A stretch of DNA of 63,038 nt, filler included, from Asterionella formosa (taxonomy: Eukaryota): the NCBI GenBank assembly GCA_002256025.1. It is 4 parts of 4 records of this genome, joined end to end, with 100 filler letters (N's around TTAATTAATTAA, not from the genome) between each part and the next. Parts side by side here need not be neighbours in the genome. Positions count along the whole stretch, not along the records: positions 1 to 29,552 come from NKIB01001013.1; 3 more parts are not named here. One strand, 5' to 3'. This document shows, one piece after another, positions 5,233 through 53,928 of the stretch (positions are counted from its first letter, which is position 1; every line of letters starts with the position of its first letter). The notes beneath the pieces are model-generated. The model saw nothing but the letters and a program-made list of their open reading frames with translations. It made no database searches and had not been told where the DNA came from. The translations under genes were made by a program, and so were the position numbers.

Positions 5233-5290
5233 AACCAGGTACTGGGTACCAGGTACCTGGTACCAGGTAGCTATAGTTGTACTGGTACTC
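5233..5290. repeat. GGTACC palindromic repeat cluster
   Basis: accaggtactgggtaccaggtacctggtaccaggtag. Confidence 0.75.
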
Positions 5291-10645: not shown

Positions 10646-10808
10646 TAAAAATTACTTCGAGATACAAAAAATTACTAGACTCCCACAGTTCTCATCAAAA
10701 AGCAAGACGATACCGGTAGCTATGTAGGGTGGGGATTGCTTTCACACATGCGGGAGCCTCATCGGAGGAGATACCGTACATAGCAAATTGTTGGGAACCT
10801 GAACCAAC

Positions 10809-10940
10809 CGGGTACCTGTTACCAGGTACCTGGTATCAGGGAGTACCAGGCCCCCGGTAAAAGGTAATATAATTTTGGTCCATAAAGTACCTTGTACGGA
10901 GTACCGGGTACTACGAACGTACCAGGGTACCTGGTACCAT
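10809..10940. repeat. GGTACC palindromic repeat cluster upstream of the KH gene
   Basis: gggtacctgttaccaggtacctggtatc ... gtaccagggtacctggtacc. Confidence 0.75.
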
Positions 10941-17048: not shown

Positions 17049-17194
17049 CCTGGTACCAGGTACCATACCCCTGGTAGTCCTGATAGTACCACCTGGTACC
17101 AGGTACCATACCCCTGGTAGTCCTGATAGTACCACCTGGTACCAGGTACCATACCCCTGGTAGTCCTGATAGTACCACCTGGTACCAGGTACCA
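17049..17194. repeat. Perfect 43-bp tandem repeat x3 plus a partial unit, built on the GGTACC palindrome
   Basis: Unit CCTGGTACCAGGTACCATACCCCTGGTAGTCCTGATAGTACCA starts at 17049, 17092 and 17135, with a partial unit at 17178. More GGTACC units continue to ~17405. Confidence 0.95.
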
Positions 17195-20956: not shown

Positions 20957-22081
20957 CTACATGAACCTCATCACGCTTGTCCGAAAGGTCACGTCAGGTG
21001 ACGAATGCAGCACATCAATGTCTCGATAGCAAAGCAATTCCCTTCCTTTTCCATAGCTTGGCTTTACAATGTATTCTTCGCTTACTGATCCCTGAAATAA
21101 AACAGGTTCCATTCTAGGATGATCTTCAGGGGCAATGCATTCACGCACTAGAGGGAGGACATGAGAAAAAACACCAGTACCTTGGTAGTTATCTTGCACT
21201 GGAAATCCCCAAAGGACCGTCTTTGAATTGCCAGGCGAACGACCTGAATCTTGATGCCATGAATGGTTAATTTTCCTATCCAAAACACCAACAATGTCAA
21301 TCCAATGATTGGATGGTGTCGACCCACAGAGTCGCCCAATGGCGTGCATTAATTCGTCACCTGTCGGTGCATTGATTCCAAGGCCATCCTTGAGTACTCT
21401 CGTCAAGCGGACCATTCGATTGCTCCCATTACCTAGTGGCGTTTTCCAAGAACCCTGTAACGACGAGTCGGTAAGTAGCAACATTGCCTTTGCTTTATCA
21501 CTCAACCCTTGATATTGAGGTGTAGCATCGAAAATGTCCATTCTCATGCTATCTCGTATACCATTCCGAAACTCCCCACAGGAGTTGAACATTTCTGAAA
21601 AGCCAAGCCCCGGAAATATCTCATCCAGGGACACGAATTGGAAGGGTGGCTGATGGGGAATGATGGTACCTAACATGTGGCTATTGCTGTCATCCGACGA
21701 AGTGCCATCCATCCTTGCATGTAGTGGCAATTGTTGTTGTAACATGGTGTTGTTCGCGAGATCGAGGGGAAGCGCATCATGGTTGGAGATTTGTTTGGAT
21801 ACGAGTTCCTTGGCGTTGAATGCAATTTTTGGTCGTGTTGTGGAAGGACCTCTATGAATCGACTGGGAAGGAGTTCGTCGGCGTTCGCTTCGAGGGGGAC
21901 CTGCCGCCGATAAGTAAACAACAGTGCTGGTGCTGGACTGTCGTGCCGGTATCGAGTACATGCAAGGTCTGACGGTATGTGTGCATGACGACAGTACCGG
22001 CATATGAAACGCAAGGCAGGAGGGTGGTGTCACTAGAACGAATGATGATATGACAGCAAGGAAGACGGCGCGGAAAGACAT
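20957..22081 (-). CDS. Putative plastid-targeted protein, possibly an Fe(II)/2OG-dioxygenase-like fold
   Basis: Signal peptide ending CLA-F, followed by an S/T/R-rich transit region. HSWHQD (HxD), a distal DVLHSSPD and a terminal R (FRTSVMRFM). Confidence 0.7.
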   Translation of the reverse strand: MSFRAVFLAVISSFVLVTPPSCLAFHMPVLSSCTHTVRPCMYSIPARQSSTSTVVYLSAAGPPRSERRRTPSQSIHRGPSTTRPKIAFNAKELVSKQISNHDALPLDLANNTMLQQQLPLHARMDGTSSDDSNSHMLGTIIPHQPPFQFVSLDEIFPGLGFSEMFNSCGEFRNGIRDSMRMDIFDATPQYQGLSDKAKAMLLLTDSSLQGSWKTPLGNGSNRMVRLTRVLKDGLGINAPTGDELMHAIGRLCGSTPSNHWIDIVGVLDRKINHSWHQDSGRSPGNSKTVLWGFPVQDNYQGTGVFSHVLPLVRECIAPEDHPRMEPVLFQGSVSEEYIVKPSYGKGRELLCYRDIDVLHSSPDVTFRTSVMRFM

Positions 22082-22202
22082 CGTCGTACTGATGAATGTG
22101 AAGACTACAAATGAGTCATTGATAGATGAAGATTAAATACCGGTATACGGTACCAGTACAAGGTTCCTGTTAACCTGGTACCAGTATCGGTATATTTTAT
22201 GT

Positions 22203-22319
22203 AGGAAAATGATATTTCGTCGCCCTAGCCCTAACCCTAACCCTAGACTCTTCCAATCTAGCATATGAGCGAAGATGGGGGTTAGGGTTAGGGTTAGGGG
22301 GATGAAATATCATTTTCCT
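22203..22319. mobile_element. 117-bp foldback/MITE-like element whose 41-bp terminal inverted repeats contain telomeric CCCTAA/TTAGGG units
   Basis: 22203-22243 matches the reverse complement of 22279-22319 at 38/41 positions. Spacer is 35 nt. Confidence 0.8.
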
Positions 22320-22614
22320 TTTTTAAAGATAGACACCAGTATTCCCCAATGATATCATTGTTTCATCATCAACTTTCTGCAATACATCAAATTTTTACTT
22401 TGGTGCGTTATGTAATGAGAAGGAATCCTCATCCTCGCTATTCCTTGCCACTTAAAGTTGAGATATACAAAAGCCCAGCCAGGAATTAAGCTCACTCCTT
22501 CGCTTTGCAACCAGCATAATGATATACGGAGCTCTTTACGGAGTATTTTTCTATTCAAACAAAATCTCTTACTACCGCTATTACTTAGTTCGTCCATGCT
22601 TCGCTGTGGTCTTG

Positions 22615-24392
22615 TTACCTTTCTCCAAGTTCCTCCTCGTCGTCTTCCTCCTGCTCGACATTTTCATTAACAGTTTCGGTTTGCCGACTCAAAACTTTCT
22701 CAACCTTTTTGCACTCTGTCTCCAACTTCGCATGTGTTCGCACACCAACGTCAAGTGCAGTGGACACCACGGCCTTCGCTCCCAACTCCTTCGCTCTGAG
22801 TCTAGCATCTTTCGATGCGCCTAGAAGGGAACGGAGACACTTTGCGGAGAGGCACGCATTATGAGGTTTCATGGTGGCCTTGCCAAGCTCTGAGATAAGG
22901 GTAGAGAGAATGTCCTTCTGTGTCACGTTTTGTGCGTCATTCATAAAAGTATTGGCCATGTCCGAGGATGTTGTCCGTGCTCGAGCGCTAGGCTTGGTGG
23001 TTTCTTCGGGTTCGTTCCCAAAAGAGTCCAAATTCTCCATAACATCCAGGGCGTTCGCCAGAACTGCCAATGCCAAATTGTGCAATAATCCAAGGTGTTC
23101 GCTGTCGTTGATACGGTCCTTGTCGCTTAAATCGTCTTCATCGAGATAATCAACTTCCTCGCCGATTCGCCGAAACTGCACCAAGCTCAGAATAGTTTGC
23201 CGAATTTCTTCAAAAGGCGATTCGTCAAAAACAAGAGTGTTATTCTCTTCGTCTATGGTCGTTCCAAGCAAAATTACCCGGGCAGCAATGAGGGCAGTTA
23301 CTGTCCCAGTCTTGCGCGGGTCCGTCAACAAGCAAAGAGATTCCAATCCGAGCTGTCGCGCATCCATGCGATCCTTCATCAAGAGACCATGGGCGATTTC
23401 AAGGGCAATGACAGCATTTTCTTCTTCCGACTGAGATTCTGTGGTAACATGGCGGGACAGCAGGCGTTCGACCTTCTTCGAATAAGCAGAGTCAATATCT
23501 GATCCCTTCACACCAAAGTCTTCCACATCAAAGTCACCGATAGCAGCATCGAGAATGTATCTGCTGTATCGATGAAAGGTGATACTACATCCATTGCGAC
23601 GCTGAAGCTCCACCACAATTTTGTTGTCCCGGGACGTCGCCCAAAGCGATAGGTGCATTTCAACATTTTCAGCTGTCACTAAGTTCGCCGTCGCCGCTTC
23701 ATCATCGTAGCTGGCATGTACGCTGAGCACACGAAGGCAGTCAGAAAGACGGGTCGCGACCTCAGAGAGAGAATCGTCGATCAAGCGAGATGACTTTTCA
23801 AGGGGATAAAACGCCGGTACGGGACGGAGTGATTTAGGGCTCCAGTTGCTCGTTGAAACCACAACTGCTGCAGAAGAGGGATCATCAATGCTCCTGCTAC
23901 TCTTTTCAAAAAACGAAGCCTTGTCGATTAATTCGTCAGTCGCTTCACTCAAAGCAGGTCTTGAGGCGGATGCAGATCCCAGTTGGGCAAACTGAACGGA
24001 GCAAACGGAACAGCATCGAAGCGAAGTGTTAGTCAGAGATTGTCTCGACAACAAAGGATTCAAAACCGAACGGTGTAGACCACAAATGAAGCTCAACACG
24101 CTGAAGCGATGGCTCCCCTGATCATTTCTAGGTAACGTCGTCAACGCACAGAAAACATAGGTAGAACGCCATGTCGAAAATTTCCCCGGTCGGTCCGGTG
24201 GGACTCACGTGCACTCCCATATATTCAGCTATGAAGACATCTATGTTTGAGATATCAATCAACCACTGCGTTGAACAAAACTTTGATCCTTCCATTCCAT
24301 CTCCTCTTGTTACTCACCCTCCATTCAGGTCCGTCCCATTTGATGGCTTGATCATTGCCAGAAGCGGCGGATGGCTTTGTTGCGTCGCTCAT
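22615..24392 (-). CDS. Uncharacterised protein with a KA1-like domain and helical C-terminus; main exon 23991-22615, first exon 24392-24318 (or alternative 24220-24209)
   Basis: Branch site CTGACTAAC and acceptor TTCAG precede FAQLGS (phase 0). Two upstream phase-0 ATG exons both end in GTGAGT. KA1-like VVELQRRNGCSITFHRY. Confidence 0.7.
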
Positions 24393-25144: not shown

Positions 25145-25243
25145 ACCAGCAAGTTGCGGTAATTTTGCTAAGACTAAAGATTTAGCTTCTTTTATCCCAG
25201 ATTAAAAATGTTTTTTTAAGCAAAATGACCGCAACTTGCTGGT
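25145..25243 (+). mobile_element. ~90-bp MITE, copy 2 (best preserved)
   Basis: 25-bp TIRs ACCAGCAAGTTGCGGT(A/C)ATTTTGCT match at 24/25. Embedded in GGTACC repeats spanning 25121-25265. Confidence 0.85.
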
Positions 25244-26082
25244 ACCTGGTACCTGGTACCTGGTATCGCACGGTTCCCGGCTTGCAATGGTTACATAGGA
25301 CCGGTAGGAGAAGTGGGGGTCGTGTATGGCACCCGCAAGTACGTAACTGTGTTCTATGCTGTGCATTGCTTCATTTTGAACATTTTTTTCAAATATTACT
25401 TGTTCGAACATTCTCCCTTATTTGAATACTTACACATAAGCACTTGTTGTTACGGATAGGATTCGGATGCCAGGGCAATAGTATTGTAATAGTTGTCGTC
25501 CATAACTAGATATATATGGCTAAATAAATAGTTTCTCTCTTACTCCATAATGCTAATGGAAAATTACCCTTCCGTAGCCAAGTGCACAATTTTGACTTCA
25601 TCAAAAATGACATCAACGGTAACCGTTCCCAGCGGTTGTGGTTTGTGCACATCAGAGCTCATTTGTTAAAGTGGCGACCAGTTTAAGTCATTATTACGAA
25701 AGTTGGTTCCTAATAAAAGGTGCTGAAAACACATCATCATGGAAAAGAGGAATCTATCTGAAAGGAATCTTAGCCTATCTCTCCCCTTTTCGATATTTCT
25801 TGTGATGTATTATACAATATATATACATTTATGTCAATTAATATAATACCTTGCCGGCATTTTATTTTTAAGCAAATTCATATATTACCTTGCCGGCATT
25901 CCATTCCATGATTTACAGCATAATACGGTACCAGGAAGTTGTCTCAAATGCATAAAAAGTAAATGCTCGACGCTGGACCACTGCCGCATTGCTTTGTTCA
26001 CCATGATCATGGTTCAACCTCTCATTTTCCCCAATGAAGACACAAGTGATTCTTGTAATGATGACGCTCAGCAACAGCGCCG

Positions 26083-39162: not shown

Positions 39163-39495
39163 TTTTCAATTATACGATTATACAATCCTAAAAATATGAT
39201 GATTTACTGTCCCGCTGCAGTAGCAACAGTCATGAACATATGGTGTTCTATTGCTCGCTTACTACTCCGACTATTCTTTTTCAATTTTATGATCATACAA
39301 TCCTAAAAATATGATGATTTATGTCCCGCTGCAGAAGCAGCAGTCATGAACATATCGTTTTCTGTTGCTCGCTTACTACTCCGAGGACTATCCTTTTTCA
39401 ATTTTATGATCATACGATCCTAAAACTATGATGATTTACTGTCCCGCTGCAGTAGCAGCAGTCATGAACATATGGTGTTCTGTTTCTCGCTTACT
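39163..39495. repeat. ~117-bp tandem repeat x ~2.8
   Basis: tacaatcctaaaaatatgatgatttactgtcccgctgcag.agca.cagtcatgaacatat recurs at ~39181, ~39296 and ~39413. Confidence 0.9.
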
Positions 39496-42400
39496 TCCTG
39501 GTACTCTGACTACCTGGTACCCCCAGTATATCACTTCCTGCCTGCTACTGGTACTCTGTATATATATGATAAAATGTTCTGGTCGTATGATGTACCAGTA
39601 CACATGAAGAACTCCCGCCCAAAAAAGGGGCTTGAACGATTTGCTACCAAAATCCTCGCATATAAATAATGATACAAATGGGTTATGACTTAGTACGCCA
39701 ATTGAATGGTCTAACTAATTAGTTCCAACGGACGTAGAAAATATTGATGCAAACAAATTTCAAAAAAACAGTACCGGTACACGAAGTCGTGGAAAACAAC
39801 GGACATATCGTGCATTGAATATTTTCGAATTATCTATATGGGAATATGATCATCTCAACAATACCAGACATTCCATATTGAGAGTGCCTTTGATTTTTAT
39901 AAATGTACGACACTTGATATATTTATATATTTACAAATATTATAACTATATACGTGGCAAATATATTCGAAATCGTTCTGTCATGTTAACAAGAAATGCC
40001 TGCTTCATGAAAAGATACGTCGTAGTAAAGCACATGACAAGAAAGGAAAGTTTACGCAAGCAATAACGAAAAACATTGTGGCTTCGACACATTGCGCCTT
40101 CGAAGGATGGAGTATGTTTAAGGTAATGAAGCCATCAATGTGGTACTTGGATGACAATCGTTGGGAGGCAGGACAACAACAAATTGTAAACTAAACGCAC
40201 ATTTCCATTTTTTCTCAGTTGAATCAACAGCTCGTTTCGCTTGTTGGGGAGCACCAATGTAAAACAAAAAAAATTGTTAAGTGCTCTTGTCACTGGACTT
40301 ATTCACTTCTGATGGAACATAACTGACGGACACGCCACTTTACCTTCTCTCAAAGTTAAGCTAACGAAAATGAATCGGTAAATTTCATTTGGCAACATTG
40401 GAAACCTGAAACTTACTTATTCAAGAATTTACTGACAATTTACTATTACAGACGTATACATCACTTGCTTTGATTTAGCTGTGGTAAGTGAAGCAATCAA
40501 GAGGATACAATGGAATGGCGTGATGTTGTGGTGTCAGTGTAACATGTCTAGCTAACAAGTCGTTCCTTCTCATTGTTACTGTAACTGCATAGGACAATAA
40601 AACCGATCAAACAACGGAATAGTCGGCGAGTTCAGAATGACACTAACAGCAGGGAGAGAGACGCAACATTAGTAAGGCATTGCTTGGCACAAGATTCAGA
40701 AAAGAGGAAGAAAAGGGTGAGACAGGAACAATATACATTGAGCCAAGTAGAGAGAGATACGTTGGGTCACTGGCATGTAGAATAATAGATAGCATTGCTA
40801 AATTTGATAGTTAAATTACGATCCATTTCAATCTATTTTGAACAATTCTTGTGATTAGAATTATGATCATGTTTATGATAGATTTACGACGAAACAATTT
40901 AAATGATAGCATAGAGTTGAGCTGATTTTAGGATGCGTTGTAGTTATAATTTACATCGGGCGATCACGAGAAGTGAAAATAATATGAGAAGGTTTATGAT
41001 GTTGATGAGTAATCTTTTTGATCAGTTGATATACATTGTGTGATGATAATGTTCCTATTATCATTATACTTCAAGGTCGGTAAAATATTAATAAATCATC
41101 ATAGCTACAAGATACCTTGATCATAGTTTTGATCCAAAAATTATCATATAAACGAAAATCCTGTGCCACTTAGCGTACGATGCCCTTGATCCTATATGCA
41201 TGATACTTTTTATTTGCAGACGCAGTCAACAGATGGGTTAATGTTGGAAGGTGTTTCTGGTAGTCATTTGCTCAGTTTTGAAGATATGACCAAAGTAGCG
41301 ACAGTTTTGAGTCCGCGGTGATTAGCTTGATAACTTTGACTAGATAAGGTTTTCTATATTTCCATTTTGTAGAAATAGATGAGAAAACCTGAGAAGACAG
41401 TATTCTTGGAGAGGGAACAACATTTCAAGATGCAACAAATTCCTCTACGTCAATTTTGTAGTGACTTTCATGTACTCACTAATTATCGTGGTTCATATTT
41501 CTATGGAATCTTGATAAGGTCATTTGACAGCGTACTATAGACATTCTTTCAGCCATTCAACAATAGACTGCTTGTTCTTTGCGCAAATAAAAATTTCGCA
41601 TTGCGGAAATGATCACGAACCATTGAGATGTTCAACTTTGCCATTTTGATAAGGACTGTCACTACCAGTAGGTTCCATGATATAACCTGCATTAGCAGTG
41701 ACATCTCGTAAGGCGGCTGAGCGGCTGAGCGGCTGAGCGGCTGAGCGCCAAAGCTCACCTCCTTGATCAAGGCGGTGAGCACGGTAACCATTCGGAAGAC
41801 CATTCTGGAGCAAGAAGGTTTTAACAAGGTCAATGGGTGGTGGGGCCTTGCTGGTAGTGAGAAAAACCCAAGTGAATCTAGTTTTGGCATCCGTAATGAG
41901 GAGATAGGAATTGTATCCATCATAGGAGTCAACAACACGTGATGCACCAGGTGTCTTATGAAAAGAATCAGAGCTTGCACGCATGAATCCAAAATCGAAA
42001 TGAAAACGAGAACCAGGGAGGAGGTGATCTACAGGGGATATGGGGCCCATGGGGTTCTTCTGGGCACAGCCAGGCATCACTGCAGATTTTGCAATGGTGT
42101 AGTGGATGAACTTGGTGATGTAGGCCATGAGGAAGACCAGTGGCACACTGTTGTAAATGGCGAAGCTGATGCATGCCAGGATGACCAAGTCGTTGATGCC
42201 AGAGTTCAGTGGAAAGCAAAGGTGACAACCTGTTGGCATGAGGTGTGATAGTCAATTGTTTGAAGTAGAAGAGATTGTTTGTGCGAGTCAAGGGGGCATC
42301 AGAAAAATGATAATCAGAGGAGCTGAAGAAGCGTACAAACGCAGTGTCGATATTGCGGTAGTGAATTTCAAAACCAGAGAAGTTGCTGTAAGATTGTGAG

Positions 42401-43748
42401 CAAATATGTTGTGGGGAAATCAGAGTCTTGGAGAGTTGTGGGCAGTAATACATCATAATTTCTGCAGTAGTTCCATTAGTGAAAAACATGGAGAAGAAAC
42501 CAAAGCCAGGGCAGAGCATACCAGATACAGAAGCGTCCGCGCCTAGGAGGTCAATAGGTTTGTCTAAAGGGGTCTAGTGGTGGAGGAGGGATAGATTGGC
42601 AGTAGCACAAATATTGGCCCCAATATCACATTGTTCACCCACAGTTGCATGAGGATATTGTAATGGGGTATTTACAGAAAGATCATTAAGACGAGCAGTA
42701 TGGACAATAGGAAGGAGATCAGGAGAAGAAGCAAGCTGAATGGAGAAATTGGGGGGGGGGGAAGTGGGGGTGCACAGTCCAGATGGAGATTAGGGTTGTC
42801 AGGAAGAGTAACAGCCCTAGTAGGACATAGAAGGTGTGTGGTGTGGGGATAATCAACAACAGGAGATGAGGTCATAGGAGCCAGTGGAGGAACCAAGAGC
42901 TGGAGATCACATGAAGGAGCCGGAGGTATTGGCGGTGACAACAGGCAGAGCATTGGGCTCTCCGACAGTTTTCCAGCCGTCCCAAGGAAGCCGTTCATCA
43001 TTCTGGGGATGGTAAAATGACCGGCTTAGAGAAAATCCGCTTCATAAATGGCATTGTCCAGTATGAGATTAAGATCAGAGACTGGGATATCAGGTTGAAG
43101 GTGATGTAAGTGATGTGCCATAGCACGCTGGTGAGTGGTGCTGTGAAGCTCTTTCCATGTAGCAGCAGCCCGATCAGCATGGTCTTGATGAGAGGAGATA
43201 TATTGGTGGACAAGGCAATGCTTGGCCAGGGTTGAGCACCAAGTGGCAGAGTGTCCCCAAGTGCCACAGCCAGATCCTCTAGGGCCTTGAGCTGAACTTG
43301 AACAAGGAAAGAGTGAAAATCAAAATCTCGAAGGAAATGAAGGAGGGACAGTTCACGAGTGGTGTATTTGGGATCCTTAGAAAGGTCACCCTGCCAATAA
43401 GCTAAGGTTGCTGATGCAAATTTCACTGAATCATCAGAATCAGAATAGCGAGGGAGTGGTGCAAGAGCTGATGAAGTAGTGTCAGCAGCATGGGCAAGGA
43501 GAGCATGTAAGAAGTAGTATGCAGCAAGCTTGCTGTCAGAATGGGTGACATGCTCTAGGTAAAGGAGTTTAATAATTTCATTTGCCATGTCAAGGGAAGT
43601 GGAGCTTTGTAGTTGTTTGAGAAGTAAGAGGCTACCCATTTCAAAGACAATAGGTGTGGGAAGATTTTTGGGCCAAAGAGCATGACCCTTTTGGAATTGG
43701 TGAAGAGGACAGAGATCAATCTGGGTGGCAGTAGCTTGTTGACATACT

Positions 43749-43915
43749 TGTTAATATCTGCATATGATGCTCCATACATGTGCTGTACGAACCATACCGG
43801 CGCAGCCACCAGATTTGGTACATGCATGAGTGCTAACAACGATGTACTCGAAACAGCAATAGAATAGTCATAATATTGTAGTTCACCTTTATTCATGACA
43901 AGGTTCCCCTCAACA
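43749..43915 (+). repeat. 5' LTR of the nested element
   Basis: TGTTAATATC...CCCTCAACA, with 5 differences from 45609-45775. Confidence 0.95.
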
Positions 43916-45608
43916 GAAGTACAATATCTGTTCGCTCTCTTTTGTCCGCCCCTGTGACGTTGCGGCTCTTGTCGACAGTGCAAACCAGCACTTGCTTGAT
44001 GTGGAGGGGAGCAAGTTGCTGTCGATAATACTATTAACACAAACTTATCTCCCATCACTTGTCCCCCCGTTACACTCATTGCTGATTCTGGCAGTTCTGG
44101 CAATTACACCACTGTTGATTTACCTGTCATCAACAAACGACCTACCACCAACCCTATCACCATTCAACTTCCTAATGGCAACCATGTTAAATCTACACAT
44201 GAGGCCGAATTATTTTTAACCATAGTATGTGTTTTGCGTCCATTATTGCACCCACAGGCCAAATTTACACTGATCAAACCGGAAAATTCATACTCCCCTC
44301 CAGCACTGGAAACAACTACATTATGATTTTATATGATTATGACAGCAACTACATTTTCGTTCAGCCCTTTCATAACCGAACCGCTTCCTGCCTCCTTGCA
44401 GCATATAAAACATTACATCAACGTTTGTGCAAAGCTGGCTTACGTCCCAAACTTCAACGCCTTGACAATGAGTGTTCTACACTCCTCAAAGAGTTCTTGG
44501 AAGCCGAAGCTATTGACTTTCAGTTGGTCCCGCCGGCTGTCCATCGTCGCAATGCCGCTGAACACACCTTTCAAAATCATTTCATTGCCGGTCTATGCAG
44601 TGTTGACAAACACTTTTCTCTCCACTTGTGGGACCAACTATTAGTTCAAGCTGAACTTACTCTTAATCTCCTCTGTGGCTCACGCATCAACCCCAAACTG
44701 TCTGCTTGGGCACAGGTCAATGGAACATATGATTACAACCTTGTCCCCCTTGCTCCACCTGGCTGTCAGGTCCTTGTTCATGCCAAGCCCTAGCACTGAA
44801 CAACATGGGCTCCGCATGCTCTCGATGGTTGGTATGTCGGCCCTGCTGTGGATTCCTATTGCTGCTACCGCATCTGGATGTGGGACACACGTTCAATCAG
44901 AATCTGCAATACTGTCTCGTGGTTTTCAACCAAAGTCCACCTAACCTGTAATTCATCCTGAGGCCACACTTCGCTTTTCTGCCAGTGACATGGTCCTCCA
45001 TGTTGAAAGCGATGCTTCCTATCTCTCTGAAACACGTGGTCGCTCCCGCGCTGCCGGCATTCACTTTCTCAGCTGTAAACCCTTGTCTCCGCCTAGCCTC
45101 ACTACGTCCATCCCTCCTCTTAACGGTGCTATTTACGTACACTGTCAAATTCTTAAGGAGGTTTTATCAAGTGCTGCTGAGGCCGAATTAGCTGCTTTGT
45201 TCCACAATGGCAAAGAGGCATATGCTATTTGCAACATTCTTGTTGAGCTTGGTCATCCCCAACCTTCTACCCGTATTGTCACCGATAATAGCACTGCCAG
45301 TGGCATTGCCAATGATACCGTCCGACAAAAACGTTCCAAAGCTATGGATATGCGTTATTACTGGGTACGCGATCGGGTTCGCCAAGGCCAATTTCTTGTA
45401 TACTGGAAAAAAGGTAGTTTGAATCGTGCTGATTATTTCACTAAACATCATCCCGCTTCCCATCATATGATGATGCGCCCGCACTATCTCCATTGCCCTC
45501 CATCCCTCCCTAGTCCTCCTAACTATTATGCGTGCTTGGCTTCTGATGCTGATCTCATCTCCACCCGAGCTCCTGTTCTTCTGCCTGACGAATCTGTTGG
45601 TGAGGGTG

Positions 45609-45775
45609 TGTTAATATCTGCATATGATGCTCCATACATGCGCCGTACGAACCATACCAGCGCAGCCACCAGATTAAGTACATGCATGAGTGCTAACAAC
45701 GATGTACTCGAAACAGCAATAGAATAGTCATAATATTGTAGTTCACCTTTATTCATGACAAGGTTCCCCTCAACA
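45609..45775 (+). repeat. 3' LTR of the nested element
   Basis: Direct repeat of 43749-43915, preceded by a purine-rich tract. Confidence 0.95.
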
Positions 45776-47024
45776 ATAGTTTCCTATACCAGTCATGGAT
45801 GTCAGCAGGAGCAGTAGAGGAAAGGGTAGGTAGGTCAGTTGAGAGGAAAGATTTTTTATCAATATTGATGGCAGTGGTGATACTAGTGGATTTGCAAAGG
45901 GGATGTGGACTCAACGGAGCAGTCAGGGCAGGACCAGTACCAGAACATCGCTCAAGATCCTTGGTGTCAGCCTGAAGAATAGCATCATGGTAGGAATGGG
46001 AATATAGAGGAGGAGATAGTAAGCCAGGTGGGGAAGGGGGTGGACCAAGGTTGGGACGAGGAGCGTTACTTGGAGGTTCAAGAAGGACAGCAGCAGGAGG
46101 AGAGTTGTGTAGAGCAGGGGGAGAGAGAAACAAAGCAAATGCATCACTACTATCAAACTCATGAATTCAGTCAAAGTTGTTGCCACCAGTGTCAGAAGAC
46201 TGTGCAAACCACATAGCTAGTCCCATGTTGGTGTCACTGTCAAGCCAATCCCACAGGGGTTCAGCAACAAGAGAAGGGGGAAGAAGAGAGGTATCAGTGT
46301 CATCACCATGATGGATACACCGCAATGCACGTTGGAATTTAGAAAGAGTGAGGTGGTGATGATTGGTCATAAAGACTGCAATGGAGTTGGGAGCTAGGCC
46401 TGCTCGAAATAGGATGTCCATAACAGATCCAGGAATGTAGGAGGGAGGGGAAGAACTGGCCATTTTTTTTAAAGAAATTAATTGAAGAAGAAGTTGGAGA
46501 GACAGACAGACCGTTAAATGGGGGAAGGAAGGACAGATCACGGAGGAGGCCGAAAAAAGGATGGAAGGACAGACCCTTAAAAGTTAACACAGCCAAACAA
46601 AAGAAAGAAAAATGGTATCCACACCCAGGAAAAAGAAACAGAGAAGCAGACAGAACGTGCGAATTTCGTGACAGATGGTGGTGTCACAGGAGCAAACAGG
46701 ATGGTGTGGGCTGGTACGGAGATGGCTGGCGGCCTCTTGTGAATGAAGACAAAGAAGGATGACAGGAATGTGCTGAAAAGAAGGGCAATGAAGGAGAGAA
46801 GTAGAGGGGGGGGGTAGTGGTAGTCCAGAACTTCAAGGAATGGGAGAAAGGCTGTGTGGCCGAAAAATCACGATGTAGAAGCAATGTAATACACAGAAGA
46901 GGCTTTGTTGTACTGTGAACACAGAAATCCAAAGGAGAAGCGAAGAAGCAGTGGGTTGAAAGACACCTCACAGTGTCTACGGAAAAGAAAAGAAGAGGAG
47001 TTGAGGGGTCAGGCAACCGCAAAA

Positions 47025-47037
47025 GGGCTCAGTAACC
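47025..47037 (-). promoter_or_regulatory. Primer-binding site (copia-type half-tRNA-Met-like)
   Basis: GGTTACTGAGCCC abuts the LTR end ...GACA and resembles the GGTTATGRGCCC PBS of copia-like elements. Confidence 0.7.
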
Positions 47038-47236
47038 TGTCAATGCAATATCAAAAGATGAAATGCAAAATTATAATATTACTCAGGATATTCTTCTATG
47101 ATACTAGGAATGTAGGTAGATGTAGTGTAGATGCATATCAAGTACATACCGTAGTGTAGTACAGTAGTGCATCAATACTAGCTAGTACATACATCACAGT
47201 ACCACGTAGTACAGAACTATGTATGTCACACTAACA
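47038..47236 (-). repeat. 5' LTR of the host Copia
   Basis: TG...CA termini adjacent to the PBS. The outer end coincides with the transition to Gypsy sequence. No partner LTR in the window. Confidence 0.65.
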
Positions 47237-47254
47237 TAAGCTATCATCCTGTAT

Positions 47255-48390
47255 TCAGTTTCTTGAACTTAGGTGCGTTTGTCCAGGCAGCATCCCAATG
47301 GAATAAACAAAAAAATGCATCATATGGTCAGACACATGTTTCTCATAGGTGAGATTCATATGGTCTGTATGTATAATTAATTTTTGTCCTAAAAGGATGT
47401 TACGGAAGTCTTTCAGTGTTTCCACTATAGACAAGAGTTCTCGTTTGGTGACGGTATAGCATCGTTGGGTCGCATTTAATTTACGACTAGAGAACAACGC
47501 TACTAGGGGCTTATCATCTTGCATGATGACAGCGCCTGATTGATTGTCATTTGCGTCAGTATAAATATGAAACGTCTTAGAAAAGTTCGAGAAGGATAAT
47601 AATAATTGCTGACTTAAAACGTCTTTTATTCTAGTGAATGCTGCTTGATGGAGATCAGTCCATTCACAACGGGATTTTGTGGAAGGTAGTGCTGTTAGCG
47701 GTGCTAAAAAATCACTACGTCTGATCCACATATCGCGATAATAATTGATCATACCAATGAAGCATCGTAGTTGCTTACGTGTAGTTGGTATTGCGATATT
47801 TTGAATTGCCTCGAATTTTTTGATCTTGGGTTGAACACCCTGACGGGTTATCCAAAAACCAAGATATTCAATTTCGATGGTACAGAATGTCGACTTGTCT
47901 GCATTTATCCGAAGCCCTCAATTCGTACATGCTGTATGTAGGTGATCGTGAATTACGTACGTACACAGTATAGACCTGTCATTAGTTTGACATTCTTTCT
48001 TGAAAAATGATTCCCATTGGTAATCGCTTATATCTATATTTGCCCCAAAGGAAAATTAGCTATAGTACATGAGTTTTGTGCCTCTTTATCTACACGAATT
48101 GTATAGTATCCCATGTAAAGGTCTAACGCCGTGGCATTTGTAAACCCTTCGAGCTCTTGGATGAGGTCGGATATTTTTGGGATAGGAAACGGTTTTCGTT
48201 TGATATTTGCATTTAGCCGGCGAAAGTCCGAAACTACACGGACTGTACCTGACTTTTTTGCCATAATAAATGTAGGAGCGGCATGTGCCGAGTCACTACA
48301 TTTCTCTAACACACATAAATCACACAACCATTGTATATCCTTTCGGGCGGTCTCCTTATAGATGATCGGTACTGGGTATGGATGTGCTTT
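47255..48390 (-). mobile_element. Ty3/Gypsy RT-RNase H relic
   Basis: AAPTFIMAKKSGTVRVVSDFRRLN, ALDLYMGYY, MINYYR, IYTDA, RELLSIVETLK and IHTDH. Confidence 0.9.
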
Positions 48391-49156
48391 GTATTAGTCG
48401 TGATTGGACCACCTCATTTTGCACACTAATGTACATACGATGATTGCCTTCAGTGTGAATGTAACACTCGAGTAGTGTTAGCACTGTAGTTCTTACTAAA
48501 TTATTTTGCCTGGTACATTATAACCGCTCGTTTCCTTTTCAGGTTAGGTACCGGCAGCGGCTAGATCATTAATGCATACCGTATAGGGTTGGTTTGAAAA
48601 TGAGCATGTCACCCATAGTGTTTGCGCACATAGGCAAGTTTCACATAATGAAGATGCATTTGGCTCAGTGGCCTTTAACATGATTTCACAGGTGTCCATA
48701 AACCATCATGTGGCTGGAATTTCGTTATCAAGGGAGATCATGTCCTCGTAAGGAAATGTCGCTTGTAAGTGTTCTCATAAGATCCTGTCCGATTATTATG
48801 CTGGAGGGATGTGTGAGCAGCACTGTTACTGTCATCGAGGTAAAGTCATGTGTATATGTCATATGGGACATTGCATACTATTCGCACCACCGATTATCAT
48901 GTCTTTGAATTATTAATTAGTCCGTCATGTATTTCTGCTGTGTACTGGACCTATAATGATGTATAGTAGGCAAATAAAATATGATTAAAATACTTTGTAC
49001 CGTACTACTGGTACTGTTACTGTCATCAATGCAACCACAGTCCCATATATCTATGTATGTACATACAGTATACAGTACCACTGATTGTGGATATACATAT
49101 ATCTGTATTATTTATTAGTCTGTCATGTATTTCTGCTATGTATTGGTACTAAATAC

Positions 49157-51697
49157 TCGGGTTCTTTCCGGCTCGACAGGCTGATATCAGTCTCCCTTGC
49201 GGCCCGATAAGAAAGCCTTAACATCTCCTTCCTATAAGTTTATATACATCGCTGGATAGTACTTTTTCGCCTGAATAAAAGGGCTATATATGTTAAAGAC
49301 AAAGAATTGAAATTTGAACTAGTAATATTTAGTCGTGAACCAGTCACAACATGAAAAATTCCACAGACACATATCAGTCTGGACTGGAAGGACTCAATAC
49401 TGCTTCCATGGAATGATGTAAACAACAGTCAACACAACGATAGACACCCATGGAGCATATACAACATGTCCGAGTCTGTCTTTTGCTGTCTACACATGTA
49501 CTTTGGGGGTGGGAACTGTCAGCATCCACAACCTCTATCCCGAAAATTTTCTTGCCTTTGGGTAGCCGGAAAACTCTGTGCTCAGCATTTTTTGTCAATC
49601 TCGATGACCTTCGAGGCGATTCTTCTTCTTCTTCGTAATAAGGATTACATACCAATGCCTCTGCCAAAAGCTTGCGAAAACCGAGCATGCCATTAACCTC
49701 CTCCTTGCAGAAGTGTTTATATGCCAGCATGGCATTTACTTCCGGGACTGACAAGATGAATGCGAACACTCTATTTGGCCACCATTTCGTTGCCCATACC
49801 ACCTCCAAACTGATTAGGGAATGCCTTTTTGCATTATGATCGTCAACAGCATGCCGAAACTTGTAGTGGTTGTGGATAACCTCAGTATATGTAACCTGTT
49901 TTTGGCGCTTTGTTCCTTGTACCAACCAATTTCTCATTGAAACCTTGCCAATTGGTTCTAAGGTCCCATACGTAGACATTAGAGACATCACGTAGTCTGG
50001 TTCCTTCATGCAATATATGTGGAAGGGGATGTTGTCTAGTTTTCCTGGCTAGGCATCTGCAAAGCCACACTCAAGGCTTTCGAAGTGTGGCTTGATTTCT
50101 TCACCTCAGATGTATTTTTGCCAGAAGCGGCGTTTCTTTATCAGTGCTGATGCATACAATCCCTTCTTCCTTAATTCAATGATTCCCTTTAGTACACAAA
50201 GTCCACTGTCAAGAATAATTATCCTTGCTGATCCCCAAATCGATTTTGAGAGTCGAAGCAATAGCCCAACAGTTTTCCCAGCCACCAAGATCATCAAACT
50301 CTTGATATTGTCGTGATCGGGGAGCATCTTTTCCATCCACTATTTCCATTGCAAACATGATTCCTGTATTGCCACAGCAAACTGTGTGGTATTCATTTCC
50401 GAATGGCGAAGGCTTTTGGGGAACAAACATGAATCCAGGACAGGTATGCATGTTTGTCCATGTAGACATTGATTCGTCTAAACATACAATATGACCAATC
50501 TTAAAATTATTTTGCTTGTTTTCATTCCATGATTCAATCATTTCCCTTACTTCATGAAAGCGGTCCGGATAATCAGGTGCTGGCCAAATTGTATAGCCTA
50601 TAGCCTTAAGAATTGAATCGAATCAATCACGAGACATGATGTGATTTAGCCAAAATGAGGCATTGTCGAAAATATTGGTAGGCGCACCTGACCAAAAATC
50701 ATGCCGTTTTGTTCCCAGCGTTGTTGCCATGGAAAACCATAATCCAATCCATCTGAGTAGCTCACCATAGGTAACAGATTTGCCCTCTATCTTTAGATTA
50801 ATGATAAACAAAACATTATCTTTCAAGAACTCAGAAGGAAAAAATAATTCGAACAATTGGAAGACAGTTGGTTTCAACTGAGTTGGAAATGATGAAAGTC
50901 TTGGATTACAATTTGATGCACCCATCAGTCTCCTGTAGCAAATTCCTGAGTGTCCCCACTCATCCTCAAACAAATTGTTTATTAATTCATTGGGATGAAC
51001 AACATTTTCAGGTGCTGGGGCATTGTCATCATCAATAGCAATAAATCCAGCTGCAAGGGCAATGTCATCAGCATCATAAATTGTGCCGGTGCATTTGACA
51101 AGTTCGAAGAGCTCGGAAGGCATCTCTTCATCTTCTACTGCCTCCTCAGGTACATAATCGCCTTCGCCATAGTAAAAGTAGTCTGAATCAACCTCAAAAC
51201 TGATCTTGAAGTGATTTTCAAGAGCATACAGCTCAGTTGTATCAGCATCATCCACAGTCCCGGGAGCTGTGACCACAATGGCCATCACCTCTTTACCTCT
51301 AATTTTCTTTGAGCTCCCTCCACAGAACTGTCATTCCTTCAAGTCGATGACCTTTTCCAATGTTCAGATGATGATTTCAGACCCACAGTGAGGGGTGAAT
51401 GTACTTTGATAGGCATGAAACGACGGCACCTTTGCCCATGGTCAATTTTCGTTTTCGCACCATCCCGCACAAACATTTTTGAGATTTTTTCGGCTGGTAG
51501 GCTTCTCATGTATTTGAAATTTTTTTAAACCTATAAGCTTATTGCCATGCATACCTCCAGAAACCTACAGTTCTATAGATTTAGATTAACTTTTCAGAAA
51601 TGAAATAACCGTTGAATTGATCTAGGGGCAAGGGAATGAAAACCCAGACTGAATCCAGTCTACTAGACTGAAATCAGCCTAGCCGGAAAGAATCCGA
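49157..51697 (-). mobile_element. piggyBac-like DNA transposon with ~35-bp imperfect TIRs
   Basis: Left TCGGGTTCTTTCCGGCTcgacAGGCTGATATCAGTCT matches the reverse complement of right AGACTGAAATCAGCCTAGCCGGAAAGAATCCGA. Encloses the transposase. Confidence 0.85.
49374..51463 (-). pseudogene. piggyBac-family (DDE_Tnp_1_7) transposase, frameshifted
   Basis: CLDESM, PQKPSPFGNEY, ILDSG and RHAVDDHN (DDD triad contexts), plus a C-terminal Cys-rich domain. ATG at 51463. Confidence 0.88.
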
Positions 51698-51869
51698 TAT
51701 AATTAGATGAGTTTATAAAATATGATACTGCGTATCCGGTACGTATTTTGTTTCGCTTGCATCATACAAAGAATGATGGCTTTTTGCCTTCTCCTTTTTT
51801 TGCGTGTTTGCGAACACAAGCATGCAACTTGCGTTGTGATGCTTTTTGTTGTCAGTTGATTGTTGAAGG

Positions 51870-52490
51870 TGCAATAGTTCGCATTCGTACTCAACCGTAC
51901 GAATAGATCAATTCGTCTGTTGTTTCTACAGAGCACACATCAGATCATAGTCGTTTTTGGCCATTGATTTGTGTATGGATGTCTCGTTTGTTTGATCGTT
52001 CTTGTCATTGCCTTAGAAAAGGTCTCATTAACAGGTCGACAGTGGGATAACATTTGTGTTTTGGTGGAATGTTGTAGATAAACATGCGAATGTTCGCATT
52101 CATGCACAATCATACCAATATAGCACAACCTGTTCAGAATCATCTGTCTTTGAAAGATATCAGAGTAGAATCAATGTTGGCCCTTGAGTATGTTGTATTG
52201 TAGTCTTGTCATTGTAGCCATTGTCGTACGAGCAGTGCACTCGTTGATAGACACATATTGTTTGCCATTCGGCAGATTTGGTTGATTCTTGTATTTGCAT
52301 TTGCGATTGTTCGCATTCATGCACAATCGTACCAATGTAGCTCAACTTGTTCTATCATCTGTCTTTATAGGACATCAGATTAGAATCAATATTGGCCATA
52401 ACATTTATTGTTATGTCGTCTTATCATTATAGTCATTGCCGTAGCAATGTACTAGTTGACAGACATACATCATTTTGCCATTGGCAAAGG
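51870..52490. repeat. Diverged ~215-bp tandem repeat x ~3
   Basis: gttcgcattc(a/g)t.c.caa at ~51877, ~52092 and ~52309; atcaga...ttggcc at ~51939, ~52159 and ~52374. Confidence 0.7.
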
Positions 52491-52668
52491 TTTTCACCTT
52501 TTGCTCGAATGTGCCACAGGTATCATCATTTAAAGCTCACTCCATTTAGAGGCTATTAATGGATAGCTGCAGGTCACAGGTCGGCTTTCGTTCAATGAAC
52601 TGAAAAAAAGGTTATCACTTATCTTTTTCTGAAAAGGGTAAGGGTATAAATTTATAATGCCCTACGGT

Positions 52669-53345
52669 TGTCAGGATTTAACAAGTAGGTTCTGGGTAAA
52701 TATGAGCTTAATGATTAGCATATCTATATTAGCTCCTAGTCCAAGGGGACTCACAAGGGTCTTGATGAGAAGGGTATGTACTTGGTGTCAAGAGTCCATG
52801 CTAGGTGTCATGTTTTACCCTAGCATTGGTACGTCTCTTCAAGAGGTACATCTGTACCAATAGTTATCACATAACATATACCTGCGGGTACATAATGCAA
52901 TATGTACTACGAGCTACATACTACCTGGTACCAGGTAGTAACCGTATGTATAGCATCACGTACTAATCATGATCACTCTTGTGTACATGTATATGTACTA
53001 CGTATTGGTTCCATGGTAGTCATGTGCGTAATGTAAAAGGGTACACCTTTCACTTATGGGTGACGTGGAATACATACACATTGTGTATTGTGTAAATCTC
53101 TACAGTGAGAGTAAAAAAGTATATGGTCTGTATAGAAGAGCCTATAAGGTTAACGTTATATAGGACTTATACCATCTAATGATATAGTATATCTAGCATG
53201 GTACCTGGTACATACTGTACCATAGGTCACAAACTGTCAAATTTCTTGTGTGTCCACACCAAAAAAATTGGAGGGCACACATGTCTTGGTTTCTAATCAC
53301 TAAAAATATCGATCCTCGACTCATTGGATTCCGTATATTTTATCA
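52669..53345 (-). repeat. Putative 3' LTR of the adjacent Copia relic
   Basis: Starts with TG right after the PPT GGGAGGG (53346-53352). Possible end ...TGACA at 52669; distal boundary uncertain. Confidence 0.4.
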
Positions 53346-53925
53346 CCCTCCCTGATCTCGAGACCATCAATCCATAATCACATTCACAATTTGAGTTGCA
53401 TGAGTGTCATGAATTTTGTGAATGACATTCTTTGAGAGTTTGTAGGTCTGCCGAGTTCTTCTAAGTATTCACCAAAATCAACTCTAATATCCCCAGCCTT
53501 CACCTTTTCTCCAAAGAAATGATATCTCACATCAATGTGCTTAGTTCGTGAACCAACATGTTGATTCTTTGATAAAAAGGTTGCACTTGTATTGTCTTCA
53601 GCAATAATACTGGGCATTTCTACATATTCAACTTCAATGAGCGAGTAGATTCATTATAAACGTTGTTTCCTTTGATCCATCTGATAGTGCCACATGCTAT
53701 TCTTCTGTGATGGAGAAAGTAACAATCTTTTTTCTTTTAGAAATCCAATTCATCAGTTATGCGCCACCAACGGTGCCCAAATATGCACTTGTCGATTTTT
53801 GGGTGTCTGGATTGTCTCCAAATGAGCTGTCTACCACGTCTTGAACTCGTAATTCATGTGGTGGTCTCATATTTAATTTTCTGTTTCTTGCATCATTTAA
53901 AATGAATCCTAAAAATAGTTCAACA
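53346..53925 (-). mobile_element. Copia RNase H relic with PPT
   Basis: VDSSFGD..KSTS, WISK, and EDNTSATFLSKN..VGSRTKHIDVRYHF. Confidence 0.85.
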
Positions 53926-53928
53926 GCA

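What the first reader, a model, noticed from the sequence alone, without database searches (positions are those of the whole stretch)
22203..22319. Miniature foldback element with telomeric repeats inside its terminal inverted repeats
Seen: AGGAAAATGATATTTC-gtcg-CCCTAG-CCCTAA-CCCTAA-CCC, a 35-nt spacer, then GGG-TTAGGG-TTAGGG-TTAGGG-ggat-GAAATATCATTTTCCT. The arms are 38/41 complementary. The C-rich repeats are on the left and the G-rich repeats on the right, as on a linear chromosome, but they are capped by a non-telomeric perfect 16-bp inverted repeat. The right arm has four GGG runs (G-quadruplex capable) that compete with a long hairpin. It lies ~120 bp upstream of the 22081 start codon, next to GGTACC repeats. 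Inference: a telomere-bearing MITE that could deliver telobox/G4 sites to promoters. No clear TSD is visible.
Basis: partly seen in the sequence, partly recalled or inferred. Interest (0 to 1): 0.72.

Follow-up and report, generated by a model that had tools for sequence, protein, structure and literature searches.

The report
Telomere-repeat-carrying miniature transposon in a diatom
A 117-base mirror-image DNA element that carries the diatom's chromosome-end repeat in both arms is real and is one of many scattered copies, so it is most likely a small gene-less jumping element that spreads telomere-type repeats between genes.

Summary
It has 16-bp perfect outer inverted repeats, then CCCTAR x3 on the left and TTAGGG x3 on the right, around a 35-nt asymmetric centre (arms 38/41; DNA fold z -11). 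When contigs of four public runs were laid on the locus at 80% likeness, 117, 33 and 45 DNA contigs matched 22202-22268. Summed depth there was roughly 27-100 times the flanks. The matches begin at 22202-22211 and continue into unlike flanks. The element is therefore one member of a dispersed, mostly 5-10% diverged family, most likely a non-autonomous TIR transposon (MITE). No clean target-site duplication is visible, no autonomous partner could be sought because no genome is held, and no empty site was seen. The superfamily is open. The telobox, promoter and G-quadruplex roles are untested. The element lies between two conserved same-strand genes, and contigs of an RNA library cover it. A generic scan found the same design in other eukaryote metagenome contigs (10 of 112 loci); two have 8-9-bp duplications. 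The scan noted Merlin MITEs with telomere-type repeats before, on other DNA (e1-7141006). The closest known are the ciliate TBE/Tel-1 elements.

The parts
22203..22319 (.). Whole 117-bp palindromic element, one copy of a dispersed family
   Evidence: structure; multi-copy, shared left boundary at 22202-22211
22203..22218 (+). Left outer terminal inverted repeat, 16 bp, non-telomeric
   Evidence: exact, with its only other occurrence in the window at 22304-22319 on the minus strand
22219..22222 (+). Left 4-nt linker (2 of 4 positions complementary to the right linker)
22223..22243 (+). C-strand telomere-type hexamers (CCCTAG, CCCTAA, CCCTAA, CCC)
   Evidence: the tract varies among family copies (table 4: 7 letters left out at 22222 in some contigs)
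22244..22278 (+). Asymmetric 35-nt centre. It is conserved in other copies and seen in both orientations relative to an arm.
   Evidence: pieces extend to 22263-22268; the loose ends behind 22234-22239 show centre-like sequence forward and reverse-complemented
22279..22299 (+). G-strand telomere-type hexamers (GGG, TTAGGG x3). With the flanking G-runs (22277-22301) they form a G-quadruplex motif.
22300..22303 (+). Right 4-nt linker
22304..22319 (-). Right outer terminal inverted repeat, 16 bp
22137..22193 (.). Neighbouring imperfect palindrome built of GGTACC-type motifs. It is context and not part of the element.
   Evidence: (a separate hairpin in the fold)
20957..22081 (-). Downstream conserved diatom gene (374-aa ORF). 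The element lies 121 nt upstream of its ATG.
   Evidence: 181 homologues, several covering 98-100% of the query
22615..24144 (-). Upstream conserved diatom gene (ORF listed as 509 aa from TTG; nearest database protein is 494 aa). The element lies 295 nt beyond its stop codon.
   Evidence: 405 homologues, best 99% identity

Best explanation
The element is one copy of a dispersed family of about 117-bp palindromic, non-coding repeats in a freshwater diatom. It is most likely a non-autonomous cut-and-paste (TIR) transposon, a MITE or foldback type.

Each effective terminal inverted repeat is about 41 bp. It consists of a 16-bp non-telomeric terminus followed, 4 bp in, by three to four copies of the host telomere hexamer. 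Because the two arms are inverted copies, the hexamers read C-rich on the left and G-rich on the right.

Inferred mechanism: a transposase encoded elsewhere recognises the 16-bp termini. The subterminal hexamer arrays move as part of the element. They act either as accessory protein-binding repeats, as subterminal repeats do in several TIR superfamilies (this comparison is recalled), or as passenger microsatellite.

The net effect is that interstitial telomere-type, hairpin- and G4-capable tracts are scattered into short intergenic and UTR DNA.

Shown: the structure, the multi-copy state with a shared boundary and unlike flanks, and the hexamers and centre being shared by the family.
Inferred: transposition, the superfamily, and any role of the hexamers.
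For: Structure.

Family (contigs laid at 80% likeness or more):
- X1 laid 117 contigs. By likeness, 25 were at 99% or more, 8 at 95-99%, 60 at 90-95% and 24 under 90%.
- X4 laid 33 contigs and X12 laid 45.
- Summed depth over 22203-22264 was 44,800-54,100 in X1 against 624-863 in the flanks. In X4 it was 821-828 against 30. In X12 it was 361-599 against 5-7.
- Pieces start at 22199-22211 and run to 22256-22268 with 3-8 mismatches. They cover 16 nt of terminus, the linker, the hexamers and 13-25 nt of centre. The match is therefore not only to telomere repeats.
- Loose ends before 22202/22203 have low agreement (0.54-0.63), which means different flanks.
- Unitigs of this locus break at 22203 and 22308, as expected at a repeat.
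- A loose end behind 22238 in X1 is a reverse-complemented, centre-like sequence. Arms therefore occur on both sides of the centre in the family.

The same design occurs elsewhere:
- 10 of 112 metagenome loci with (CCCTAA)3-N15-45-(TTAGGG)3 have non-telomeric inverted flanks.
- Two of them have exact flanking duplications: L111 with 9 bp and L069 with 8 bp. They are real transposons.

Other support:
- Telomere unit: the diatom P. tricornutum uses AACCCT repeats (passage of PMC9266582).
- No known RNA family reaches threshold.
Against: - No clean target-site duplication at this copy. Flanks are TA versus TT. The 8-bp models give 5/8 and the 9-bp model gives 6/9, with P about 0.016-0.04 each before correcting for six models.
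- No autonomous partner could be looked for, because no genome is held.
- No empty-site allele or joint was seen in the four runs. All four carry the element's right arm joined to the right flank here, and the left junction is bridged only in X1 and X6.
- The tool masked the right arm (22270-22307). Whether each other copy is a full palindrome is therefore not shown directly.
- Summed contig depth is not a copy number, as the tool itself warns.
- Most copies are 5-10% diverged, so current activity is not indicated.
- The family-specific pattern found nothing in the metagenome, viral or prokaryote collections.
Confidence: 0.7

Rival explanations
1. The repeated unit is not a stand-alone MITE. 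It is a piece of a longer repeat, for example the terminal part of a long-TIR autonomous transposon. It could also be a 3' tail of an endonuclease-deficient Penelope-like retroelement, which ends in telomere repeats, duplicated here in inverted form.
For: Only 22202-22268 could be scored in other copies, because the right arm was masked. One group of 4 short X1 contigs shares sequence before 22206 (agreement 0.81), so some copies may run further left. Earlier notes on this genome report chains of telomere repeats and Penelope-like pieces (e1-7547839, not tested here). Telomere-associated Penelope-like elements with telomere repeats at their 3' ends are described in PMC4522978 (passage).
Against: Most pieces share a boundary at 22202-22206 with unlike flanks. 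Retroelement 5' truncation should give scattered boundaries. Similarity continues past the hexamers into the centre, which a 3' tail would not do. Arms occur on both sides of the centre (loose end behind 22238). This copy ends symmetrically at both 16-bp termini.
Confidence: 0.12
2. Origin by capture. A short linear DNA fragment (the centre) received telomere repeats on both 3' ends from telomerase, as was proposed for Tetrahymena Tel-1. It was then joined into the middle of a tiny 40-bp palindromic element, and the composite amplified. This concerns the origin and is compatible with the best explanation.
For: The polarity (C-rich 5' on the left, G-rich 3' on the right) is what telomerase addition to both ends of a linear piece gives. 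The Tel-1 proposal and its polarity logic are stated in a passage of 10.1101/2025.11.06.686955. The centre is asymmetric and unrelated to the arms.
Against: The repeats lie inside the 16-bp termini, not outside as in TBE or Tel-1, so an extra nested step is needed. Any sequence inside a TIR is automatically inverted between the arms, so this polarity is a one-in-two outcome with no special mechanism. My metagenome scan asked only for this polarity, so no bias is shown. Viral contigs gave 2 loci in this polarity against 3 in the other.
Confidence: 0.1
3. It is a family of hairpin RNA genes (precursors of small RNAs, miRNA-like) and not mobile DNA.
For: A very stable RNA hairpin. Contigs of a polyA RNA library cover the element here, and cover another copy at the end of a 2852-nt contig (records 25-27). 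There are sub-threshold Rfam hairpin hits, the best being mir-1258 at 41.6 bits.
Against: All Rfam hits are far below their gathering scores (41.6 against 74) and appear on both strands, as for any palindrome. RNA contigs cannot show strand, ends or processing, and DNA can be present in such libraries. No small-RNA data were seen.
Confidence: 0.05
4. It is a single-copy accident. Either a local inverted duplication of an interstitial telomeric tract, or a scar where two telomerase-healed ends were rejoined.
For: Only one copy in the 63-kb window. No target-site duplication.
Against: It is multi-copy in three DNA runs. Healing of two broken ends followed by joining gives a G-rich arm followed by a C-rich arm. 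That is the opposite polarity, and this is my reasoning. Earlier notes on rotifers describe G-arm, spacer, C-arm scars (not tested here).
Confidence: 0.03

Closest known systems
Telomere-bearing elements of ciliates (Oxytricha TBE1-3; Tetrahymena Tel-1)
   Same: These are TIR DNA transposons whose inverted repeats carry the host's telomere repeat with the C-rich strand 5' on the left. The repeats travel with the element (PMC4724952 passages; 10.1101/2025.11.06.686955 passage).
   Different: In TBEs the telomere repeat is the outermost tip of a 78-bp or longer TIR. The elements are about 4 kb, encode a Tc1/mariner transposase and two other ORFs, and duplicate ANT (the 4-kb size is recalled). 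Here the repeats begin 20 bp inside the terminus, the element is 117 bp and non-coding, the host is a diatom, and no target duplication is seen.
MITEs and foldback non-autonomous TIR transposons (Stowaway/Tourist-type, Merlin-, hAT- or MULE-derived)
   Same: Small size, no ORF, terminal inverted repeats, many dispersed copies with unlike flanks, a position next to genes, and strong hairpin potential.
   Different: The diagnostic target-site duplication and a matching autonomous element are not shown. The arms consist largely of telomere hexamers.
   Same: A GG-starting terminus and telomere-type repeats carried inside a small TIR element. L111 and L069 have GGC termini, 9- and 8-bp duplications, and C-strand/G-strand repeats around the centre.
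   Different: There is no sequence similarity to this family. Their arms are 35-150 bp with the repeats near the centre. At this copy an 8-9-bp duplication is only 5/8 to 6/9. Merlin membership of any of them was not tested here with a transposase.
Short interstitial telomeric sequences from telomerase-mediated break repair or telomere fusion
   Same: Short internal telomere-repeat tracts in inverted pairs.
   Different: Those are single-locus scars with the G-arm before the C-arm. This one has the C-arm before the G-arm, is capped by a non-telomeric inverted repeat, and is multi-copy.

Membership tests
MITE / non-autonomous TIR DNA transposon | Terminal inverted repeats | tested here: met
   16-bp perfect termini, 38/41 over the arms
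MITE / non-autonomous TIR DNA transposon | Small (under about 800 bp) and non-coding | tested here: met
   117 bp. No ORF of 80 aa or more begins or ends within it.
MITE / non-autonomous TIR DNA transposon | Many dispersed copies with shared ends and unrelated flanks | tested here: met
   117, 33 and 45 contigs laid in three DNA runs. The boundary is at 22202-22211. Flank agreement is 0.54-0.63. The right end could not be scored because it was masked.
MITE / non-autonomous TIR DNA transposon | Target-site duplication of fixed length | tested here: inconclusive
   TA versus TT; 8 bp gives 5/8; 9 bp gives 6/9 (P 0.016 uncorrected, six models tried); 9 contigs in four runs share TA just before GG.
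MITE / non-autonomous TIR DNA transposon | Autonomous element with matching termini | not testable with these tools
   No genome is held. No second match to the terminus in the window at up to 3 mismatches.
MITE / non-autonomous TIR DNA transposon | Presence/absence polymorphism (an empty site) | tested here: inconclusive
   no joints. X1, X4, X12 and X6 all carry the right arm plus the right flank here. The runs are close relatives, with only a few SNPs.
Ciliate telomere-bearing elements (TBE/Tel-1) | Telomere repeat forms the outermost end of the TIR | tested here: not met
   The repeats start 20 bp inside the terminus. The TBE TIRs listed start with the repeat.
Ciliate telomere-bearing elements (TBE/Tel-1) | C-rich strand 5' at the left end (chromosome-end polarity) | tested here: met
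Ciliate telomere-bearing elements (TBE/Tel-1) | Tc1/mariner transposase and a 3-bp ANT duplication | tested here: not met
   No ORF in the element. The flanking triplets are GTA and TTT.
Endonuclease-deficient Penelope-like elements (Coprina/Athena) 3' ends | Telomere repeats at the extreme 3' end, variable 5' truncation, reverse transcriptase nearby, a chromosome-end position | tested here: not met
   Shared 5' boundary, and similarity continues past the repeats into the centre. The locus lies between two conserved genes. Reverse transcriptase was not searched for genome-wide.
Telomerase-healed break scars / head-to-head interstitial telomeric sequences | G-rich arm then C-rich arm at a unique junction | tested here: not met
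   Opposite polarity and multi-copy
Rfam miRNA hairpin families (mir-1258 and others) | Score at or above the family's gathering threshold | tested here: not met
   Best hit 41.6 bits against 74

The most novel reading that the evidence does not exclude
The telomere hexamers are not cargo. They are a working part of the element. The arms imitate chromosome ends, so the excised linear DNA, or the inserted copy, is bound by the host's TRF-type telomere-repeat proteins. That would protect, tether or target it. The same trick has arisen independently in diatoms, in ciliates (TBE/Tel-1) and in the unrelated foldback transposons seen in metagenome contigs. Such elements would then be a general, overlooked source of interstitial telomeric sequences, and of telomere-protein binding sites, next to genes.
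Probability: 0.15. Interest if true: 0.8.

Novelty: new variant of a known kind. Interest (0 to 1): 0.5.

Why it matters
Interstitial telomere repeats are usually explained by chromosome fusions or by telomerase acting at breaks. A mobile family that carries them shows a third route, and one that places hairpin- and G4-capable telomere-protein sites in the short spacers and UTRs of a compact algal genome.

It also extends the 'telomere-bearing transposon' design beyond ciliates. The metagenome foldbacks hint that the design recurs in several eukaryote lineages.

In practice, such elements break short-read assemblies and can be mistaken for telomere fusions or chromosome ends.

Tried and rejected
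- Own-genome search: no genome is held for this window.
- Family-specific pattern (11 nt of the terminus, a 3-5-nt gap, then two hexamers): 0 hits in metagenome contigs, viral contigs and genome contigs. This shows only that these collections do not hold the family.
- Look-up of the element in earlier notes by sequence and by place: nothing.
- Polarity bias: viral contigs gave 2 loci (C then G) against 3 (G then C), too few to say anything. The metagenome scan asked for one polarity only.
- Parts of the stretch without cover in X4 (21800-22171) and gaps in X12 are holes in contigs, not absences.
- The bacterial-type promoter and terminator scan is not applicable to a eukaryote. Its one 'terminator' is just the right terminus followed by a T-run.
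- Pfam found nothing for either flanking protein.
- Literature searches listed no paper on telomere-repeat-bearing MITEs in diatoms. I read only listings and abstracts, plus passages of six papers. The Linum preprint and the nematode review held nothing relevant.
- The break-healing scar model is rejected on polarity and copy number.

Full report
OBSERVATION

- a 16-bp non-telomeric terminus at 22203-22218
- a 4-nt linker
- CCCTAG-CCCTAA-CCCTAA-CCC at 22223-22243
- a 35-nt centre at 22244-22278
- GGG-TTAGGG-TTAGGG-TTAGGG at 22279-22299
- a 4-nt linker
- the perfect reverse complement of the terminus at 22304-22319

The structure is far beyond chance:
- The 16-mer occurs nowhere else in the 63-kb window, even at 2 mismatches (2 matches against 0.13 expected) or, as a 17-mer, at 3 mismatches.
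- All five matches to a double telomere hexamer lie in the element (0.18 expected).
- The arms are 38/41 complementary.
- The 117 nt fold as single-stranded DNA at -42.3 kcal/mol, z -11.1, with 0 of 200 shuffles as good. The minus-strand RNA folds at -66 kcal/mol.
- Both strands carry a four-run G-quadruplex motif. These are 2 of only 4 such motifs in the window.

CONTEXT

The window is eukaryotic. Earlier notes on the same genome call it a freshwater diatom. The protein homologues agree:
- The 374-aa ORF at 20957-22081 (minus strand) has 181 homologues, with named ones from Thalassiosira, Seminavis, Cylindrotheca and Leptocylindrus. Several cover 98-100% of it, so the ATG at 22081 is plausible.
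- The ORF at 22615-24144 (minus strand) has 405 homologues. The best is 99% identical and 494 aa long.
- Pfam names neither protein.

The element therefore lies in a 533-bp spacer between two conserved genes on the same strand. It is 295 nt beyond the stop of one and 121 nt before the start of the next.

Immediately to its left is a second, imperfect palindrome made of GGTACC-type motifs (22137-22193). GGTACCAG is strongly over-represented in the window, with 43 matches against 0.97 expected. Earlier notes read these tracts as transposon footprints or as arrays that transposons target. I did not test that.

The diatom P. tricornutum has AACCCT telomere repeats (passage of PMC9266582). The hexamer here is therefore the expected telomere unit. 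I did not see this species' own chromosome ends.

IS IT SINGLE-COPY?

No whole genome is held, so I used public sequencing runs. Of 24 runs listed, 20 hold the 4-kb stretch or part of it, from 13 studies. All are kept as contigs. I laid three DNA runs (X1, X4, X12) and one polyA RNA run (X6) on 21800-22700 at 80% likeness.

Main result:
- In X1, 117 contigs were laid. By likeness, 25 were at 99% or more, 8 at 95-99%, 60 at 90-95% and 24 below 90%.
- In X4, 33 contigs were laid, and in X12, 45.
- Summed depth jumps from 624 in the left flank and 665-863 in the right flank to 54,074 and 44,838 in the two bins that cover 22203-22264 in X1. In X4 it goes from 30 to about 825. In X12 it goes from 5-7 to 361-599.
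- The tool warns that summed contig depth is not a copy number. I take it only as 'dozens of copies'.

The listed pieces show what the repeat is:
- They begin at 22199-22211 and end at 22256-22268, with 3-8 mismatches.
- They therefore match the non-telomeric terminus, the linker, the hexamers and 13-25 nt of the centre, not merely telomere repeats.
- Loose ends before 22202/22203 have low agreement (0.54-0.63), so the flanks differ from copy to copy.
- This locus's own unitigs stop at 22203 and 22308, as expected where a de Bruijn graph meets a repeat.
- Hexamer number varies among copies (7 letters left out at 22222 in some contigs).
- Loose ends behind 22234-22239 show centre-like sequence both forward and reverse-complemented. 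Arms therefore lie on both sides of the centre in the family.

Limits of this result:
- The tool masked the right arm (22270-22307) as an internal repeat, so the right boundary of other copies was not scored.
- No joint, meaning no empty-site allele, was seen. All four runs carry the right arm joined to the right flank here. The left junction is bridged only in X1 (record 2) and X6 (record 25).
- Most copies differ from this one by 5-10%, so the family is not obviously young.

TRANSCRIPTION

In the polyA library X6, one contig (mean depth 293) runs from the downstream gene through the whole element to about 22311. Another (mean depth 3368) runs from about 22282 into the upstream gene. They overlap by about 30 nt inside the right arm (records 25 and 27).

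A second copy of the element lies at the end of another 2852-nt RNA-library contig (record 26).

Contigs cannot give strand, ends or level, and DNA may be present in the library. I take from this only that the element is probably within transcribed UTR or read-through DNA. The eleven-fold step in contig depth at the element is noted but unexplained.

No Rfam family reaches threshold. The best hit is a miRNA hairpin model at 41.6 bits against a gathering score of 74, and the hits appear on both strands as for any palindrome.

WHICH KIND OF ELEMENT?

The target-site duplication is not resolved. At this copy:
- TA against TT for a TA-target model
- GTA against TTT for a 3-bp model
- 5/8 for two different 8-bp models
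- 6/9 for a 9-bp model, with P about 0.016 for that model alone, from six models tried and with T-rich flanks

In other copies the two bases before GG are most often TA (pieces starting at 22202: 4 contigs in X1, 2 in X4, 2 in X12 and 1 in X6). Some have GT.

The data therefore allow a TA-target (Tc1/mariner-like) element, a GG-terminus element with an 8-9-bp duplication (Merlin-like), or a TAGG-terminus element with an 8-bp duplication (hAT-like). I leave the superfamily open.

Subterminal short repeats that bind transposase or a partner protein are a regular feature of several TIR superfamilies (recalled, not tested). This is the basis for proposing that the hexamers could be binding sites.

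RELATED SEQUENCES ELSEWHERE

A family-specific pattern found nothing in the metagenome, viral or prokaryote collections.

After masking telomere-like hexamers I aligned the flanks:
- 10 of 112 loci (9 distinct, since L042 and L044 are one locus) have inverted non-telomeric flanks scoring 30 or more. These have the same foldback design as here. The arms are 35-165 bp and show no sequence similarity to the diatom family.
- Two of them have exact flanking duplications next to GGC termini: L111 with 9 bp and L069 with 8 bp. L100 is a second copy of L111's family in different flanks. These are bona fide cut-and-paste elements with telomere repeats around their centre.
- Most of the other loci are G+C-rich contigs (0.6-0.7). 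In those examined (L003, L011, L040, L077), blocks of the opposite polarity (TTAGGG then CCCTAA) alternate with directly repeated 13-29-bp host-like units. That is a different phenomenon and is recorded under things noticed.

I did not test that note, but L111 and L069 fit its description.

MECHANISM AND POLARITY

If telomerase heals the two ends of a break and the ends are rejoined, the result is a G-rich arm followed by a C-rich arm. Earlier rotifer notes describe such scars.

Here the order is C-rich then G-rich, so a healed-break scar is excluded by polarity as well as by copy number.

The observed polarity is that of a linear molecule with telomeres. It is also the polarity of Oxytricha TBE inverted repeats, which begin with the C4A4 repeat (passages and Table 3 of PMC4724952). 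The same polarity was proposed for Tetrahymena Tel-1, through telomerase acting on a linear transposition intermediate (passage of 10.1101/2025.11.06.686955).

In those elements the repeat is outermost. Here it starts 20 bp inside a non-telomeric terminus.

The simplest reading is that the hexamers are part of a roughly 41-bp inverted repeat. Any sequence inside such a repeat is automatically inverted between the arms, so the polarity is a one-in-two outcome. A Tel-1-like capture of a telomere-capped fragment inside a tiny palindromic element remains possible as the origin.

VERDICT

- The MITE reading is supported on copy number and shared boundary. It still lacks a target duplication, a partner element and an empty site.
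- The promoter, telobox and G4 function is untested.
- I file it as a new variant of a known kind: a MITE/foldback element carrying telomere repeats subterminally, in a diatom. The ciliate telomere-bearing elements are the closest described design.
- My literature searches (listings and abstracts only) turned up no description of such elements in diatoms.
- Interest is moderate. The finding is curious and gives a transposon route to interstitial telomere repeats. Its importance depends on whether the hexamers do anything.

Noticed in passing
window 2595-59722, e.g. 17049-17194, 5234-5269, 10807-10840, 25239-25265, 22137-22193: GGTACCAG occurs 43 times against 0.97 expected. It forms short palindromic arrays, including a perfect 43-bp x 3.4 tandem at 17049-17194. 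One such palindrome abuts the element. Earlier notes on this genome read these as transposon footprints or target arrays.
   Followed up: no
L011, L040, L077, L003 and most other G+C-rich loci: G+C-rich (0.6-0.7) metagenome contigs hold blocks of (TTAGGG)n joined head-to-head to (CCCTAA)n. In the four loci examined (L003, L011, L040, L077), each block is flanked by direct copies of a 13-29-bp unit of coding-like sequence, repeated up to four times in tandem. The polarity is opposite to the diatom element. The cause is unknown: insertions with long duplications, intron-like elements or repair scars.
   Followed up: partly
L111:172-500, L100:1-198, L069:327-504: These are foldback transposons from metagenome contigs with telomere repeats around their centre, GGC-type termini and exact flanking duplications (9 bp in L111, 8 bp in L069). 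L100 and L111 are two insertions of one family.
   Followed up: partly
L032:274-628, L043:342-538, L075:20-274: Three long, near-perfect palindromes (197-355 bp) with telomere hexamers near the centre and no clear flanking duplication. L032 is 162/165 identical between its arms.
   Followed up: partly
window 22282-22311: In the polyA library X6, the mean depth of contigs steps from 3368 on the upstream-gene side to 293 on the downstream-gene side, exactly inside the right arm. This could be the 3' end of the upstream mRNA. It could also only reflect a unitig break at a repeat.
   Followed up: no
window 42001-48000: Strong and alternating GC skew (+0.28, -0.15, +0.24) and AT skew in 2-kb windows.
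   Followed up: no
window 39163-39495: A 114-bp tandem repeat, 2.9 copies, 90% matches.
   Followed up: no
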